From an uncultured Bacteroidota bacterium (lineage in GTDB: Bacteria; Bacteroidota; Bacteroidia; Chitinophagales; Chitinophagaceae): DNA of 64,000 nucleotides. The DNA lies in NCBI GenBank assembly GCA_903851465.1, contig CAINOI010000030.1, positions 22,795 through 86,794 of the forward strand. Reading direction: 5' to 3'. The notes beneath the pieces are model-generated. The model ran no database searches and was not told the origin of the DNA. It saw only the letters and a program-made list of their open reading frames with translations. This document shows, one piece after another, positions 14,283 through 28,226 of the stretch. Numbering within the stretch: the first letter of the stretch is position 1; each line of letters starts with the position of its first letter. A program made the position numbers and the translations under genes.

Positions 14283-16688
14283 TTAATCAATTATTTTTAT
14301 GAAAGCACTTCTCTTAGGCGCTGGCATTTCGCTATTAATTCCTTTAATGGCCTTCCATAAAATTTGATTAAACAATAAATCTGGTACTTTATCTTCCTTG
14401 CTAAAATCCATGCTTTCACTCAACTTAGACAAGGCATCTACTTTAATATTTTTTTCATTGATATCAACCAATGGATTAATTACATTGTAAGGTGTTTTAT
14501 TCACTTTAGTATCAAATGATCTCCACATTGGTTCTGCAGCGGCATCATATTGACTCATTGGCGGTAAGCCAAGAATTAACTCCATTGTTCTTAACATGCT
14601 CGAAGTCGAATACATCGTGTGGTCTACAAACCCTCTTTTAACAAATCCTCCTGCAACATATGCTGTTGAGCGATGTGCATCCACATGGTCTGCTCCATTT
14701 TGTGCATCATCTTCTAAAATAAAAATTGCAATTTTATCCCAAATAGGATGTTTGCTTAAATAGTCTACGAATAAACCAACTGCATAATCATTGTCAGCTA
14801 CATGCGCAAAAGGCGTTGGTCTACCCACCCTTGTACCTTCGGTGTGGTCATTGATAAAACGCATTGTATTTAATGCAGGCACTTGATTGATAGCGTATAA
14901 TGAATCAAAATCTCTTTTCCATTGATAGAATCTAGAAGTGTCTCTTACTTTCTCATCCCAGCTTGTAAAATACGGACAGAATTTACCTTGTAAGGTTGGA
15001 TAATTTGCTTCATAATCATCTGCAAACTCTCCATAGGTTCTAAAGCTCACTCTTGCTTTTAAGGCATGATCCCATAAAAATCCTCCTTTAGGCGATGCAA
15101 TATTTTTTTGACCTTCATAATCATAGGTACCACCTCTTCCACCATAACTAGTTACCCAAGTTTTTTCATTGTAATCATTGGCATAAGCAGCCATACTCCA
15201 ACTATGTCCGTCAGCACTTACTTCTGCATCTACATAAAAATTATCTAATAAAACAAATTGCTCTGAAATTGCGTGTTGGTTTGGTGTGATATTTCTTCCA
15301 AAAAGCAATAAACTGCTATCTCCATTGCCTTGAGGTAAATCACTTAGTACCTGATCATAAGTTCTATTTTCTTTGATCATATAAAACACATGCTTGATTG
15401 GAGAACTATCGCCTACATTTTTTGGTATTGGATTACCTTTCATACCTGAGGTTGACAATTCCTTACTTTTATCATAAGGCGTATTTAGATAGACTTGCTT
15501 AGTTAAGCTAGTTAGTTCTGCCAATGTTGGTTCCTTGAAAATAGAAAGGGTACCCTTAAATAAACCACCAATATATTGGACTGGTTCTGGTTTTGCTTTT
15601 ATATCTCCTGCTTGGTAGTTCACTGTTTGTTTTCTTTGAACTGGACTTGGCCCATTTGGATTTGCCTTTGAGCTAAGCCCTTTACCATTGGTTACGAATA
15701 AAGTATTACCTACAATTTTTAAATTAGTTGGATACCACCCAGTAGGGATAAAACCTATACTTGAACTAAATCCTTTTTTTGTCACATCAAAAACGGCTAA
15801 ATTATTATTGTCGGCATTGGCCACATATAATCTTGATTCGTTTTCGTTTAATGCCAACCCATTAGTAGTAGATCCGTTTGGTGCATTTGCAAACAAGGCA
15901 CAATTCAGTACTTCGACAATTGTTAAAGACTTTGTATCTACCACGGCAACACTATTGTCATTTGCATTGGCAACATATAAATAGCTTCCGTTTTTTGTTA
16001 TTAACAATTCATTTGGATTATCGCCGATGGCTAATTTTTTAATTGTTTGTTTTGTCTTTGTATCCCAAATCAATAACTGGTCTGCACCCCATAATGAAAT
16101 ATATAATTGTTTTTTATCAGGACTTAACATACAGGTATATGCTTCTGAGCCTAATGCATATGTAGTGAATTTTTTTGATTCAAGATTAATTTCATACAAT
16201 GTATTATTCTCTTTTGATACCACATACATAATATTAGTTGCATCATTGATGCATAGCCCTGTTGGTGAAATTTTAACTGGCCATTTTCCTCCTAGCTTGA
16301 TAGAGTCGACTAATTTTAATTTACTAGAAACAATTTCATATTTTAAAATCCAATTATCGTTTCCACCACTTGCGTACAAGAATTGGTTATTTTTACTAAA
16401 AGCCAATCCATACCAACTTTTTGGTGTGGTTACATAATCTAATATTGTTTGCTTAGCAATATCTACCAAGTGAATACCTTGTGTACTTTGACCGTTATTA
16501 GTGATGGCTGCAAATTTTTTATTTGGACTTACAACAATATTTAGCGGCAAATCTTGTAATGGCAACTGTTTACCAATTGGAGTTAATTTCCAATTATTTG
16601 GCAAAACGGTCTGTTGCATTTGACCGTTACTTGTTATAGCTGCAAACAAACTAGCTGCTAAGCATATAAGCGTAAATTTCATTTTCAT
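14283..16688 (-). CDS. Secreted YncE/YVTN beta-propeller plus phosphoesterase (PLC/AcpA-like) protein
   Basis: Signal peptide, propeller repeats (IPTGWYP), SPIKHVFYMIKENRTYDQV, DNFYVDAEVSADGH, NDHT, EDDAQNGADHVDAHRS. Confidence 0.85.
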   Translation of the reverse strand: MKMKFTLICLAASLFAAITSNGQMQQTVLPNNWKLTPIGKQLPLQDLPLNIVVSPNKKFAAITNNGQSTQGIHLVDIAKQTILDYVTTPKSWYGLAFSKNNQFLYASGGNDNWILKYEIVSSKLKLVDSIKLGGKWPVKISPTGLCINDATNIMYVVSKENNTLYEINLESKKFTTYALGSEAYTCMLSPDKKQLYISLWGADQLLIWDTKTKQTIKKLAIGDNPNELLITKNGSYLYVANANDNSVAVVDTKSLTIVEVLNCALFANAPNGSTTNGLALNENESRLYVANADNNNLAVFDVTKKGFSSSIGFIPTGWYPTNLKIVGNTLFVTNGKGLSSKANPNGPSPVQRKQTVNYQAGDIKAKPEPVQYIGGLFKGTLSIFKEPTLAELTSLTKQVYLNTPYDKSKELSTSGMKGNPIPKNVGDSSPIKHVFYMIKENRTYDQVLSDLPQGNGDSSLLLFGRNITPNQHAISEQFVLLDNFYVDAEVSADGHSWSMAAYANDYNEKTWVTSYGGRGGTYDYEGQKNIASPKGGFLWDHALKARVSFRTYGEFADDYEANYPTLQGKFCPYFTSWDEKVRDTSRFYQWKRDFDSLYAINQVPALNTMRFINDHTEGTRVGRPTPFAHVADNDYAVGLFVDYLSKHPIWDKIAIFILEDDAQNGADHVDAHRSTAYVAGGFVKRGFVDHTMYSTSSMLRTMELILGLPPMSQYDAAAEPMWRSFDTKVNKTPYNVINPLVDINEKNIKVDALSKLSESMDFSKEDKVPDLLFNQILWKAIKGINSEMPAPKRSAFIKIID

Positions 16689-16732
16689 AAATTGCTGATT
16701 ATTATTTAATAAATTGATCGATGTATTTAATA

Positions 16733-27543: not shown

Positions 27544-27548
27544 ATTTT

Positions 27549-28226
27549 ATGCAAATTCAATGTGTCGTTTTTGACATGGCTGGTACCACTGTAAACGAAG
27601 ACAATCTTGTTTATAAAACTTTACAAGCTGCCATTAATCATTACAATGTTCCCGTAGATTTAGATCATGTATTATTACATGGTGCTGGGAAGGAAAAATT
27701 CCAAGCAATTAAAGACATCATTTCAAATAGTCCCTATACATTAGATGAAATGGTGCAATTAGAAGCGTTTAATTATTTTTTAGCACAATTAGACATTGCT
27801 TATAAAAACTTTAAGGTAACTCCAATGCCAGGTGCAGAACAGGTATTCATAGCATTAAAAGAAAAAGGGATAAAAGTAGTGTTAAATACTGGATACAACA
27901 GAGCAACAGCAGAAAGTTTATTAGGTCAATTAGGATGGTCTGAAGGAGCACAAATAGATCTTTTAGTGACTGCATCCGATGTATTGCATAATCGTCCTAT
28001 GCCTGATATGATCCTTTATGCAAAAAATAAATTGAATATAGCAGACACAAAGCAGATGGTTAAAATTGGTGATTCTTGTATTGATATTGAAGAAGGTAAA
28101 AATGCAGGCTGTTTGTTGAATATTGGTATTACAACAGGGGCGCAAACCGAAACACAATTATTACAAGCAAAGCCAGATTATATCGTTCATAGTTTAACAG
28201 AAATGTTAGAGATCCTTTCAAAGTAG
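27549..28226 (+). CDS. Phosphonatase-like HAD hydrolase (PhnX-like, TIGR03351-type)
   Basis: DMAGT in place of DxDxT, cap Lys in GAGKEK, Arg in NRPMPDMI, KIGDSCIDIEEGKNAG. Confidence 0.82.
   Translation: MQIQCVVFDMAGTTVNEDNLVYKTLQAAINHYNVPVDLDHVLLHGAGKEKFQAIKDIISNSPYTLDEMVQLEAFNYFLAQLDIAYKNFKVTPMPGAEQVFIALKEKGIKVVLNTGYNRATAESLLGQLGWSEGAQIDLLVTASDVLHNRPMPDMILYAKNKLNIADTKQMVKIGDSCIDIEEGKNAGCLLNIGITTGAQTETQLLQAKPDYIVHSLTEMLEILSK

What the first reader, a model, noticed from the sequence alone, without database searches (positions are those of the whole stretch)
14283..28226. Candidate SusCD-fed phosphonate utilisation locus (a PUL-like system for C-P compounds)
Seen: two secreted phosphoesterases lie divergent from a SusC-SusD-DUF5690-FAD oxidoreductase-phnZ-like-PhnX-like HAD run, with a repeat array in the shared intergenic region. 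Known: TIGR03364-type oxidases, PhnZ HD dioxygenases and DxAGT HADs are phosphonate-catabolic families, and phosphonate import is usually described via ABC systems such as PhnCDE. Inference: the esterases release aminophosphonate head groups from phosphonolipids or phosphonoglycans, SusCD imports them, DUF5690 crosses the inner membrane, and two parallel C-P cleavage routes release Pi. No C-P lyase, PhnW, PhnY or PhnCDE is in the window.
Basis: partly seen in the sequence, partly recalled or inferred. Interest (0 to 1): 0.85.

Follow-up and report, generated by a model that had tools for sequence, protein, structure and literature searches.

The report
SusCD-linked aminophosphonate utilisation locus
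This is a real, widely conserved Bacteroidota gene cluster that couples an outer-membrane SusC/SusD importer and periplasmic phosphoesterases to an uncharacterised inner-membrane permease and two carbon-phosphorus bond-cleaving enzyme routes; the link has been noted in the literature but never tested.

Summary
The gene content is confirmed at the stated coordinates. TIGR03364 (PbfD), TIGR03276 (PhnZ-like) and DUF5690 score above their cut-offs. TIGR03351 (PhnX-like) is 2 bits below its cut-off but keeps the phosphonatase motifs. The "repeat array" is only a loose cluster of ATTGTTMA-like words.

Comparative genomics supports the linkage. Of 45 DUF5690 loci with full flanks, 43 carry PbfD, PhnZ or PhnX-like genes and 29 carry SusCD. 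About 25 of all 80 loci carry SusC orthologues at 41-84% identity. Searches starting from SusD (4 of 5) and from the esterase (3 of 3) lead back to the same cluster.

The system is larger than reported: the TonB-dependent transporter at 12108-14240 belongs to it. The esterases carry plain signal peptides, with no lipobox and no T9SS tail.

It is less new than claimed. PbfD with PhnX is a characterised AEP / N-methyl-AEP route. The Lidbury group defined PusCD organophosphorus importers and remarked in 2019, 2020 and 2026 that pusCD-like pairs sit beside aminophosphonate genes. The cargo, the role of DUF5690 and the regulation remain untested.

Verdict: new variant of a known kind, moderate interest.

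The parts
12108..14240 (-). Plain TonB-dependent transporter (Plug plus 22-strand barrel, no SusD partner). It is the last gene of the PE2-PE1-TBDT string. The true start is probably an internal Met upstream of the signal peptide.
   Evidence: PF07715 and PF00593. Only weak sub-threshold hits to haem, B12 and copper receptors. Orthologues sit inside the cluster in L001, L010, L029, L050, L086 (between PE1 and the HD gene) and L087.
14283..16688 (-). PE1: secreted beta-propeller fused to a PLC/AcpA-type (PF04185) phosphoesterase. Candidate phosphonate-ester hydrolase.
   Evidence: PF10282 at 54.5 bits and PF04185 at 33.6 bits. SPI-like N-terminus MKMKFTLICLAASLFAAITSNGQ. No T9SS tail. ENRTFD and EDD..G.DH.D.HRS motifs are invariant with PE2 homologues.
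16733..19441 (-). PE2: paralogue of PE1 with the same two-domain architecture. First gene of the minus-strand unit.
   Evidence: PF04185 at 50.1 bits. Homologues are 69-89% identical and named 'bifunctional YncE family protein/alkaline phosphatase family protein'. 3 of 3 sampled homologues lie in or near the DUF5690 cluster. The C-terminal domain model is low confidence; its top fold hits are PlcN, plant and fungal NPC, AcpA and a glycerophosphoethanolamine phosphodiesterase.
19442..19652 (.). Divergent control region. It holds a Bacteroidota-type promoter-like TTTG...TAGATTTG (19606-19634) upstream of susC, plus a loose cluster of ATTGTTMA-like words in both orientations.
   Evidence: Sequence. 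Repeats. TRF negative. Word counts. The block 19603-19646 is conserved with L001. The promoter consensus is from general knowledge of Bacteroidota promoters and was not tested.
19653..22871 (+). SusC-type TonB-dependent transporter.
   Evidence: TIGR04056 at 395 bits against 368; TIGR04057 signature at 43.3 bits, just under its 46.2 cut-off; CarbopepD_reg_2 and Plug domains. Orthologues at 41-84% identity over about 99% of the length in about 25 related loci, against 23-31% partial identity to the window's own SusC paralogues.
22892..24451 (+). SusD-type surface lipoprotein (signal peptide ends ...SSMTAC).
   Evidence: PF12771 at 215 bits and PF12741 at 133 bits. Solved SusD homologues 3mx3, 3ejn and 4ler at E about 1e-60. 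4 of 5 homologues at 61-67% identity are followed directly by esterase-HD-HAD-DUF5690-DAO.
24487..24513 (+). Intrinsic-terminator-like hairpin (12-bp stem, 7 G-C pairs, then a U-tract) between susD and DUF5690. Likely terminator or attenuator separating susCD from the permease and enzyme genes.
   Evidence: RNA fold -21.2 kcal/mol, z = -3.5. A hairpin of different sequence with a T-tract lies at the same position in L001.
24531..25799 (+). DUF5690: 12-helix MFS-fold inner-membrane protein. Candidate aminophosphonate permease.
   Evidence: PF18943 at 491 bits. No PDB match by sequence profile. AF2 model pLDDT 83.9 and pTM 0.84. Foldseek top hits are all MFS: NorA, sialin, SLC37A2 and SLC37A4 G6P:Pi antiporters, TM about 0.6-0.68. 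43 of 45 full-flank loci carry PbfD, PhnZ or PhnX-like genes within 10 kb.
25792..26916 (+). PbfD-type FAD amine oxidase (TIGR03364). Predicted to convert AEP or N-methyl-AEP to phosphonoacetaldehyde.
   Evidence: 392 bits against a cut-off of 285. The start overlaps the DUF5690 stop by 8 nt. The family is characterised in PMC10590968. Present in 58 of 80 related loci.
26995..27543 (+). PhnZ-like HD-domain diiron oxygenase (TIGR03276). Predicted oxidative C-P cleavage of a 1-hydroxy-2-aminoalkylphosphonate.
   Evidence: 223 bits against 214.6; below the TmpB and PhnZ1 equivalog cut-offs. PDB hits: TmpB 6npa at 131 bits, PhnZ 4mlm at 102 bits; Y21 and E24 align with PhnZ Y24 and E27. H31, H55, D56, H77, H100 and D157 are at least 95% conserved in 37 orthologues.
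27549..28226 (+). PhnX-like HAD phosphonatase (TIGR03351). Predicted to convert phosphonoacetaldehyde to acetaldehyde plus Pi.
   Evidence: 216.8 bits against 218.9. Aligns to PhnX 2iof, including DxAGT, RP and GDxxxD. D9, A11, G12, T13, K50 (cap lysine), R149, P150, D175 and D179 are at least 95% conserved in 60 orthologues.
28241..29500 (+). Secreted beta-lactamase-fold serine hydrolase. Possibly co-transcribed, but membership of the system is doubtful.
   Evidence: PF00144 at 211 bits. It starts 14 nt after phnX-like and its stop overlaps the nadC start. Weak relatives appear in only 2 of 80 related loci.

Best explanation
This is a PUL-like 'phosphorus utilisation' locus for aminophosphonates that occur as esters on lipids or glycans. 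The proposed flow has four steps.

1. The SusC/SusD pair captures an AEP-bearing compound at the cell surface and imports it using TonB energy. The co-transcribed plain TonB-dependent transporter may do the same, or may take up free aminophosphonate. The cargo could be a deacylated phosphonolipid head group or a phosphonoglycan fragment. (Inferred.)

2. In the periplasm, the two propeller-PLC/AcpA-type phosphoesterases cut the single P-O-C ester bond. This releases free 2-aminoethylphosphonate, N-methyl-AEP or 1-hydroxy-AEP. (The enzyme class is shown; location and substrate are inferred.)

3. The MFS-fold DUF5690 protein carries the free aminophosphonate across the inner membrane. (The fold and the gene linkage are shown; the substrate is inferred.)

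4. In the cytoplasm, PbfD oxidises AEP or N-methyl-AEP to phosphonoacetaldehyde, and the PhnX-like HAD hydrolyses that to acetaldehyde plus Pi. In parallel, the PhnZ-like diiron oxygenase cleaves ready-made 1-hydroxy-aminophosphonates to Pi. No PhnY hydroxylase is present. (Family membership and catalytic residues are shown; the PbfD and PhnX reactions are known from characterised homologues; the PhnZ substrate is inferred.)

Transcription appears to run in three units: PE2-PE1-TBDT; susCD, ending at a hairpin; and DUF5690-pbfD-phnZ-phnX.
For: - Family assignments.
- Catalytic residues conserved across 37-60 orthologues. PDB alignments to PhnZ, TmpB and PhnX.
- PbfD biochemistry, and pbfD clustering with phnX without phnW: PMC10590968.
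- Forward synteny from DUF5690: 591 or more loci in GTDB species genomes. Of the 80 kept, 69 have a catabolic gene and 37 have SusCD, of which 30 also carry a secreted AP-superfamily esterase (PE or PF01663). Of 45 full-flank loci, 43 have catabolic genes and 29 have SusCD.
- SusC orthologues at 41-84% identity keep their place despite gene-order rearrangements. A second, roughly 30%-identity SusCD type is found beside the same genes in Flavobacteriia and Cytophagia.
- Reverse synteny: 4 of 5 from SusD and 3 of 3 from PE2. L086 has all nine genes in one co-oriented block.
- DUF5690 has the MFS fold.
- The esterases have SPI signals, no lipobox and no T9SS tail. PbfD, PhnZ and PhnX-like have no signal peptide.
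- Precedent: PusCD1/2 import organophosphorus compounds with periplasmic PLCs. pusCD-like pairs are reported next to aminophosphonate genes and in low-Pi-induced clusters.
- P-stress neighbours (ppk, ppx, PlcP plus glycosyltransferase).
Against: - There are no expression, binding or growth data for this locus or for any orthologue.
- About a third of full-flank DUF5690 loci lack an adjacent SusCD. In one MAG the SusCD orthologue is unlinked.
- SusCD pairs are very common in these genomes, so some adjacency is expected by chance.
- A terminator-like hairpin separates susCD from the catabolic genes, so co-transcription is not assured.
- DUF5690's fold hits are generic MFS. GLUT and NorA score as well as the organophosphate antiporters, and no sequence link to GlpT or AepP was found.
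- The PE C-terminal domain model is low confidence (pLDDT 56.8).
- Esterase localisation rests on reading the signal peptides by eye.
- PhnX-like is 2 bits under its curated cut-off.
- The PhnZ-like substrate is unknown; it scores closer to TmpB than to PhnZ.
Confidence: 0.6

Rival explanations
1. The esterases act outside the cell on phosphonolipids or phosphonoglycans, and SusCD then imports the free, small aminophosphonate head groups.
For: The cryo-EM structure of PusCD1 shows a small ligand bound (inositol phosphate). The authors leave open extracellular PLC action followed by import. The gene set is identical to that of the best explanation.
Against: PE1 and PE2 have no lipoprotein Cys box and no T9SS C-terminal domain. 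Those are the usual routes to the Bacteroidota surface or medium. Free AEP (125 Da) could pass through porins, and a SusD lid is normally used for larger ligands.
Confidence: 0.2
2. The outer-membrane and esterase module is a general phosphodiester or phospholipid head-group scavenging system, for example for glycerophosphoethanolamine. It merely shares a P-stress island with an independent cytoplasmic phosphonate pathway fed by DUF5690. Under this reading SusCD does not carry phosphonates specifically.
For: PF04185 enzymes characterised so far act on phosphate esters; the fold hits include PlcN, NPC, AcpA and a glycerophosphoethanolamine phosphodiesterase. The neighbourhood holds other P-homeostasis genes. 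A hairpin separates susCD from the catabolic genes. Some DUF5690 clusters lack SusCD.
Against: The same SusCD and PE orthologues stay glued to HD-HAD-DUF5690-DAO through several rearrangements and across classes, and 7 of 8 reverse look-ups return to the phosphonate genes. No phosphate-ester-specific inner-membrane transporter (GlpT or Ugp type) or periplasmic phosphomonoesterase lies in the window's cluster. Phosphoethanolamine and AEP esters are near-isosteric, so dual specificity is possible and would blur this rival into the best explanation.
Confidence: 0.15
3. The locus serves nitrogen (or carbon) acquisition from aminophosphonates and is substrate-induced rather than Pho-controlled, as shown for AepXVW, AepP and PhnWAY in Proteobacteria.
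For: In 24 related loci an XRE-HTH plus cupin regulator, a small-molecule-sensing architecture, was found, most often directly upstream of susC. PbfD releases ammonia or methylamine. AEP mineralisation can be Pi-insensitive (PMC8316502).
Against: The window itself lacks that regulator. PhoR/PhoB-like pairs, PlcP plus glycosyltransferase, PHO4 and PhoU neighbours recur. Related Flavobacterium clusters containing PhnX were reported as low-Pi responsive. This rival concerns regulation and physiological role, not mechanism, so it can coexist with the best explanation.
Confidence: 0.25

Closest known systems
PusCD1/PusCD2 'phosphate utilisation systems' of Flavobacterium johnsoniae (Lidbury et al. 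2020, PMC8115612; Connolly et al. 2026, bioRxiv 10.64898/2026.09.03.749221)
   Same: A SusC/SusD-type TonB-dependent pair sits next to signal-peptide-bearing phosphoesterases instead of CAZymes, with predicted periplasmic PLC-type hydrolysis. The same authors note pusCD-like pairs beside aminophosphonate genes, and low-Pi-induced clusters containing PhnX.
   Different: The SusD here is of the PF12771/PF12741 type, whereas PusD1/2 are listed as pf07980/pf14322. The partner enzymes are C-P cleaving (PbfD, PhnX-like, PhnZ-like). A dedicated inner-membrane DUF5690 permease is present. The esterases are propeller-PF04185 fusions. The inositol-stacking Trp mechanism is not expected to apply, as those authors say themselves. 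No experimental data exist for this type.
PbfD-PhnX hydrolytic AEP / N-methyl-AEP pathway (Zangelmi et al. 2023, PMC10590968)
   Same: A TIGR03364 oxidase sits next to a phosphonatase without PhnW, which is the arrangement described for the pbfD2 group. FCB-group bacteria are listed among the carriers.
   Different: That work did not address uptake: a text search finds 'transporter' only in its reference list and no mention of TonB or Bacteroidota. Here the pair is embedded with SusCD, a TBDT, esterases, DUF5690 and a PhnZ-like oxygenase. The HAD is the TIGR03351 'PhnX-like' clade rather than canonical TIGR01422 (101 bits against 220).
PhnY*/PhnZ and TmpA/TmpB oxidative C-P cleavage pathways
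   Same: An HD-domain mixed-valent diiron oxygenase with all six metal ligands and the Tyr/Glu pair conserved.
   Different: No partner 2OG hydroxylase (PhnY* or TmpA) is in the window, and none appears among the recurrent neighbours. The enzyme must therefore receive an already 1-hydroxylated phosphonate, or have another substrate. It is below the equivalog cut-offs for TmpB and PhnZ1.
Known phosphonate importers: PhnCDE, AepXVW, AepSTU (ABC) and AepP (GlpT-like MFS) (Murphy et al. 2021, PMC8316502)
   Same: The function proposed for DUF5690 is inner-membrane uptake of AEP. Like AepP it has an MFS fold and lies beside AEP catabolic genes.
   Different: DUF5690 is a separate Pfam family with no detectable sequence similarity to solved MFS proteins and only a sub-threshold MFS_1 hit. 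No ABC system is present. Uptake begins with TonB-dependent outer-membrane transport.
Classical polysaccharide utilisation loci (PULs)
   Same: susC-susD tandem, a hairpin after susD, periplasmic hydrolases, an inner-membrane MFS permease and cytoplasmic catabolic enzymes.
   Different: No glycoside hydrolase, lyase or esterase CAZyme is present, and no hybrid two-component or ECF/anti-sigma regulator is in the window.

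Membership tests
SusC/RagA TonB-dependent transporters | TIGR04056 full-length match above the curated cut-off, with Plug and an N-terminal CarboxypepD_reg-like domain | tested here: met
   395.1 bits against 368.25; PF13715 and PF07715
SusD/RagB lipoproteins | SusD Pfam domain, lipoprotein signal, gene immediately downstream of susC | tested here: met
   PF12771 at 215 bits; N-terminus ...LSSMTAC; 20-nt gap after susC; PDB SusD homologues at E about 1e-60
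Polysaccharide utilisation locus (strict sense) | CAZymes co-localised with susCD | tested here: not met
   No glycoside hydrolase, polysaccharide lyase or carbohydrate esterase domain in 12108-29500
PusCD organophosphorus utilisation systems | susCD-like pair co-localised with signal-peptide phosphoesterases rather than CAZymes | tested here: met
   PE1 and PE2 are divergent from susCD. 30 of 37 related SusCD loci also carry PE or PF01663 esterases.
PusCD organophosphorus utilisation systems | Induction by phosphate depletion | not testable with these tools
   Only indirect context: ppk, ppx and PlcP plus glycosyltransferase nearby. Related Flavobacterium clusters are reported as low-Pi responsive.
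PusCD organophosphorus utilisation systems | Orthology of SusD to PusD1 or PusD2 | tested here: not met
   The window SusD is PF12771/PF12741. PusD1 and PusD2 are listed as pf07980/pf14322 in PMC8115612. No direct sequence comparison was possible.
PbfD (TIGR03364 FAD-dependent aminophosphonate oxidase) | HMM score above the curated cut-off | tested here: met
   391.8 bits against 285.1, full length
PbfD (TIGR03364 FAD-dependent aminophosphonate oxidase) | Clustering with a phosphonatase, typically without phnW | tested here: met
   The PhnX-like gene lies two genes downstream and there is no class-V aminotransferase in the window. The same pairing is seen in most related loci.
PbfD (TIGR03364 FAD-dependent aminophosphonate oxidase) | Oxidation of AEP or N-methyl-AEP to phosphonoacetaldehyde | not testable with these tools
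   Activity is shown only for the A. baumannii and M. fucicola enzymes (PMC10590968)
PhnZ-type HD diiron oxygenase (TIGR03276) | HMM above cut-off and the six metal ligands | tested here: met
   223 bits against 214.6. H31, H55, D56, H77, H100 and D157 conserved. Alignment to 4mlm and 6npa.
PhnZ-type HD diiron oxygenase (TIGR03276) | Partner 2OG/Fe hydroxylase (PhnY* or TmpA) supplying the 1-hydroxy substrate | tested here: not met
   None in the window, and none among the 14 most recurrent neighbour families
TmpB / PhnZ1 equivalogs | NCBIfam equivalog cut-off of 300 bits | tested here: not met
   188.5 and 183 bits
PhnX-like phosphonatase (TIGR03351) | HMM score above the curated cut-off | tested here: inconclusive
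   216.8 bits against 218.9, a full-length match
PhnX-like phosphonatase (TIGR03351) | DxAGT nucleophile motif, cap-domain lysine, Arg in place of the motif-III Lys, and GDxxxD | tested here: met
   D9-M-A-G-T13, K50, R149-P150, D175 and D179 are at least 95% conserved in 60 orthologues. Alignment to PhnX 2iof. Assignment of K50 as the Schiff-base lysine is by position only.
DUF5690 (PF18943) | Pfam match | tested here: met
   491.4 bits against 25
Major facilitator superfamily | 12-helix MFS fold | tested here: met
   AF2 model with pLDDT 83.9; 348 PDB matches at E of 0.001 or lower, and all 50 listed are MFS transporters
Organophosphate:Pi antiporter family (GlpT, UhpT, AepP) | Detectable sequence homology to family members | tested here: not met
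   The profile search of the PDB gave no hit at E of 10 or lower. SLC37 transporters appear among the fold hits, but no better than NorA, sialin or GLUT.
PF04185 phosphoesterase (PLC / AcpA) family | Pfam match above the gathering score, with conserved N-terminal ENR[ST]FD and C-terminal acidic/His motifs | tested here: met
   33.6 and 50.1 bits against 23. E42, N43, R44, T45, D47 and E305, D306, D307, G311, D313, H314, D316, H318, R319, S320 are invariant. Identifying these as the family's catalytic motifs rests on my own knowledge.

The most novel reading that the evidence does not exclude
SusCD (with the companion TonB-dependent transporter) is an outer-membrane importer dedicated to phosphonate-bearing compounds. 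DUF5690 is a new family of inner-membrane aminophosphonate permeases. The propeller-PLC fusions are the missing 'phosphonolipase/phosphonoglycanase' enzymes that free AEP and 1-hydroxy-AEP from lipids and glycans. Together these would make Chitinophagaceae and other Bacteroidota major, so far uncounted, consumers of esterified phosphonate P in freshwater and soil.
Probability: 0.45. Interest if true: 0.7.

Novelty: new variant of a known kind. Interest (0 to 1): 0.55.

Why it matters
Phosphonates are a large reservoir of organic phosphorus, and most natural AEP is esterified in lipids and glycans. How bacteria release and take up that pool is poorly known. Surveys of phosphonate use count phnD, aepX, phnJ and phnX, and so miss Bacteroidota that lack ABC importers.

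If the model holds, it would:
- assign a function to DUF5690, which occurs at 591 or more loci in GTDB species-representative genomes;
- identify candidate enzymes for de-esterifying phosphonolipids and phosphonoglycans;
- extend the newly characterised PusCD principle from phosphate esters to C-P compounds;
- provide marker genes for environmental studies.

The priority claim is limited, because the co-localisation has already been mentioned in print.

Tried and rejected
1. 'Repeat array' as a tandem repeat. TRF found only TATTAATAA repeated 2.2 times. The repeat finder gave only two-copy 12-15-nt families. It is downgraded to a cluster of short words.

2. TGTTMA or ATTGTTMA as a Pho-box-like element. 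The words are locally enriched but not enriched window-wide. The motif was defined after looking. It is absent as a cluster from L088's equivalent region and from the ppk/PlcP intergenic region. It is not claimed as an operator.

3. Sequence link from DUF5690 to GlpT or AepP through a profile search of the PDB: no hits.

4. Structure of the PE2 phosphoesterase domain. The model was poor (pLDDT 56.8), so the fold hits are used only as weak corroboration of the Pfam assignment.

5. The beta-lactamase-fold gene at 28241-29500 as part of the system. It is not conserved in relatives and is left as doubtful.

6. Literature searches found nothing relevant for DUF5690, for phosphonolipid with phospholipase C, or for phnZ with Bacteroidota.

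7. The supplementary tables of PMC8115612 were searched for PhnX, PhnZ and TIGR03364. There were no hits in the stored text, which is truncated.

8. A sigma-70-type promoter scan was uninformative: counts were at or below shuffle expectation.

Full report
**1. What is in the window**

On the minus strand lie PE2 (16733-19441) and PE1 (14283-16688). Each is an N-terminal YVTN/lactonase-type beta-propeller fused to a PF04185 phosphoesterase domain, the family of bacterial phospholipases C and Francisella AcpA. The scores are 50.1 and 33.6 bits against a gathering score of 23.

On the plus strand lie:
- SusC (19653-22871): TIGR04056, 395 bits against 368.
- SusD (22892-24451): PF12771, 215 bits, with a lipoprotein signal ending ...MTAC.
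- DUF5690 (24531-25799): PF18943, 491 bits.
- A TIGR03364 oxidase (25792-26916): 392 bits against 285.
- A TIGR03276 HD oxygenase (26995-27543): 223 bits against 214.6.
- A TIGR03351 PhnX-like HAD (27549-28226): 216.8 bits against 218.9, so just short.

The ORF-list start codons of PE2 and SusC were replaced by the in-frame ATGs at 19441 and 19653, which give normal signal peptides.

Pfam scans of the window's ORFs of 150 aa or more found no C-P lyase, PhnW-type aminotransferase, 2OG dioxygenase or ABC transporter. The stated absences therefore hold at that level.

**2.

- The gene after PE1 on the same strand (12108-14240) is a plain TonB-dependent transporter. In relatives it sits inside the cluster. 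In L086 the order is SusC-SusD-PE2-PE1-TBDT-HD-HAD-DUF5690-DAO, all co-oriented (also L001, L010, L029, L050, and L087). It belongs to the system.
- The 'repeat array' is not a tandem array. It is a local cluster of ATTGTTMA-like words in both orientations: 8 in 146 bp against about 0.65 expected. It is only partly conserved in the nearest relative and is not seen as a cluster in L088.
- The best-conserved block (19603-19646) looks like a Bacteroidota -33/-7 promoter (TTTG ... TAGATTTG) just upstream of susC. That reading rests on general knowledge, not on a test.
- Between susD and DUF5690 lies a 12-bp GC-rich hairpin with a U-tract (24487-24513; -21.2 kcal/mol, z = -3.5). L001 has a hairpin of different sequence at the same place. 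This suggests susCD is a separate or attenuated transcription unit, as in many PULs.
- Downstream, a secreted beta-lactamase-fold hydrolase (28241-29500) abuts phnX-like and overlaps nadC, but it is not conserved in relatives.

**3. Is susCD really linked to the phosphonate genes?**

Forward test from DUF5690:
- A DUF5690 alignment (A1) found 591 or more loci in GTDB species genomes. The 80 best come almost entirely from Bacteroidota: Chitinophagaceae, Saprospiraceae, Ohtaekwangia, Roseivirga, Zobellia and Elizabethkingia.
- The closest relative is an uncultured Sediminibacterium MAG at 72-86% amino-acid identity. The window therefore comes from a Chitinophagaceae relative.
- By tblastn of the window's proteins, 45 loci have at least 9 kb on both sides. 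Of these, 43 carry PbfD, PhnZ-like or PhnX-like genes, 29 carry SusC plus SusD, and 28 carry both.
- Across all 80 loci, about 25 have a SusC that is 41-84% identical over about 99% of its length. The window's own SusC paralogues reach only 23-31% over fragments. These are therefore orthologues, not chance neighbours.
- A second SusCD type, at about 30% identity, sits by the same genes in Flavobacteriia and Cytophagia. This points to independent recruitment.

The usual layout is: XRE-HTH/cupin regulator, SusC, SusD, one or more secreted esterases (PF01663 type I phosphodiesterase and/or PE), HD, HAD, DUF5690, PbfD. Of the 37 SusCD-bearing loci, 30 also carry such an esterase.

Reverse tests:
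- Five SusD homologues at 61-67% identity were looked up. Four are followed directly by esterase-HD-HAD-DUF5690-DAO. The fifth is unlinked, but it lies in the same MAG that holds the catabolic cluster elsewhere (compare L013).
- Three PE2 homologues at 69-78% identity are all in or next to the cluster.

**4. The parts**

*PbfD.* TIGR03364 is the family that Zangelmi et al. (PMC10590968) named PbfD. They showed that it oxidises AEP and N-methyl-AEP to phosphonoacetaldehyde using O2. The pbfD2 group typically clusters with phnX alone. This explains the absence of PhnW.

*PhnX-like.* The protein aligns with B. cereus phosphonatase. It keeps DxAGT, a cap-domain lysine (K50), the Arg-Pro of motif III and GDxxxD in 60 orthologues.

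*PhnZ-like.* The protein aligns with TmpB (131 bits) and PhnZ (102 bits). It keeps the Tyr/Glu pair and all six metal ligands. No hydroxylase partner is in the window or among the recurrent neighbours. Its likely substrate is therefore a pre-formed 1-hydroxy-aminophosphonate. From my own knowledge, 1-hydroxy-AEP occurs together with AEP in Acanthamoeba lipophosphonoglycan and in Bacteriovorax sphingophosphonolipids, which would make two parallel routes sensible.

*DUF5690.* It has no sequence-detectable solved relative. Its model (pLDDT 83.9) is a 12-helix MFS. The best fold matches include the SLC37 glucose-6-phosphate:Pi antiporters and sialin, but also NorA and GLUTs. The fold is shown; the specificity is not. 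It is the only inner-membrane transporter in the cluster. The three C-P enzymes have no signal peptides, so an importer is required.

*PE1 and PE2.* Both share invariant ENRTFD and EDD..G.DH.D.HRS motifs. A low-confidence model of the PE2 C-terminal domain (pLDDT 56.8) finds PlcN, plant and fungal non-specific PLCs, AcpA and a glycerophosphoethanolamine phosphodiesterase. Their signal peptides have no lipobox, and no T9SS tail was detected. I therefore place them in the periplasm.

**5. Mechanism**

The best-supported model is import first, hydrolysis second:
1. SusCD, and perhaps the extra TBDT, bring in AEP-bearing esters.
2. The periplasmic PE enzymes cut the single phosphonoester bond.
3. 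DUF5690 imports the free aminophosphonate.
4. PbfD with PhnX-like, and PhnZ-like in parallel, release Pi.

The shown elements are family membership, catalytic-residue conservation, the MFS fold, the gene linkage and the signal-peptide types. The inferred elements are the cargo of SusCD and the TBDT, the esterase substrates and location, the DUF5690 substrate, the PhnZ-like substrate and the regulation.

The rivals are:
- a generic phosphodiester-scavenging outer module that only shares an island with the phosphonate pathway;
- a nitrogen-acquisition role with substrate induction, suggested by the XRE-cupin regulators found in 24 related loci but absent from the window.

The context favours a phosphorus role. 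ppx, ppk1 and a PlcP-like metallophosphoesterase plus glycosyltransferase pair lie 8-13 kb downstream. The same PlcP-glycosyltransferase pair, PhoR/PhoB-like pairs, PHO4 and PhoU flank the cluster in relatives.

**6. What is already known**

- Lidbury et al. defined low-Pi-induced SusCD-like 'PusCD' complexes in Flavobacterium. [quoted passage not shown]
- The 2019 preprint mentions low-Pi-responsive clusters with TBDTs, oxidoreductases, metal-dependent hydrolases and PhnX. It also says pusCD4/5/6 sit with phosphonatases.
[quoted passage not shown] - No paper in the searchable library deals with DUF5690 in this context, or with this locus type in detail.

The idea is therefore not new, but it is untested. 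The component-level picture built here appears not to be described. That picture comprises DUF5690 as the permease, the propeller-PLC esterases, the extra TBDT, PhnZ without a hydroxylase, the split transcription units, and breadth across several Bacteroidota classes with two SusCD lineages.

**7. Verdict**

This is a new variant of a known kind: a PusCD-type organophosphorus utilisation system aimed at C-P compounds. Interest is moderate at 0.55. The locus is well conserved and directly testable, and it would assign functions to a DUF and to a fused esterase family. However, the central concept has been anticipated in print and the cytoplasmic chemistry is established.

Noticed in passing
window 24487-24513 (+); L001 about 9940-9985: A terminator-like GC-rich hairpin with a U-tract lies between the susD stop and the DUF5690 start. 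The closest relative has a hairpin of different sequence at the same position. This suggests a conserved terminator or attenuator that uncouples susCD mRNA levels from the downstream catabolic genes.
   Followed up: partly
window 36370-41302: ppx and ppk1 (minus strand) are followed by a PlcP-like metallophosphoesterase and a glycosyltransferase (39468-41302). This is the pair associated with phospholipid-to-glycolipid remodelling under P stress. The same pair flanks the phosphonate cluster in L025, L033, L034, L042, L054, L055, L063 and L080.
   Followed up: partly
window 28241-29500: A secreted beta-lactamase-fold serine hydrolase starts 14 nt after phnX-like, and its stop codon overlaps the nadC start. 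nadC, nadA and nadB may therefore be read through from the phosphonate operon. The gene is not conserved in related loci.
   Followed up: partly
L003, L004, L009, L010, L017, L024, L028, L033-L036, L062, L084 and others, immediately upstream of susC: A roughly 190-aa XRE-type HTH plus cupin regulator recurs in 24 related loci, but neither the window nor L001 has it. It is a candidate small-molecule (aminophosphonate?) sensor for the locus.
   Followed up: partly
L087 (JGI 3300045479 contig): In this relative, PE2-TBDT and DUF5690 are separated by the same nadCAB and riboflavin genes that lie next to the window's cluster. The wider neighbourhood is thus conserved while the cluster itself is rearranged.
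   Followed up: no
window 2674-9862: A second SusC/SusD pair (2674-7518) is followed by a 249-aa protein with no Pfam match, then a chorismate-binding (PabB-like) enzyme and a class-IV aminotransferase. This is an unusual, CAZyme-free company for a SusCD pair.
   Followed up: no
window 49054-53394: A TonB-dependent receptor of the OMP_b-brl_3 type is followed by a 515-aa protein with no Pfam hit. It could be a divergent SusD-like or other surface lipoprotein partner.
   Followed up: no
L088 13.5-22.7 kb: A block of small genes lies directly beside PE2, including SMC/AAA, a weak Apyc1-like metallo-beta-lactamase, RNase T and DUF1367. It looks like a prophage or defence island inserted next to the locus.
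   Followed up: no
L004, L009, L013, L039, L048, L051, L057, L088; L043, L053, L058, L070, L071, L076: Some DUF5690 clusters carry a Zn-dependent alcohol dehydrogenase or a PhnW-like class-V aminotransferase instead of, or in addition to, PbfD. DUF5690 is therefore combined with several alternative first enzymes of AEP catabolism.
   Followed up: partly
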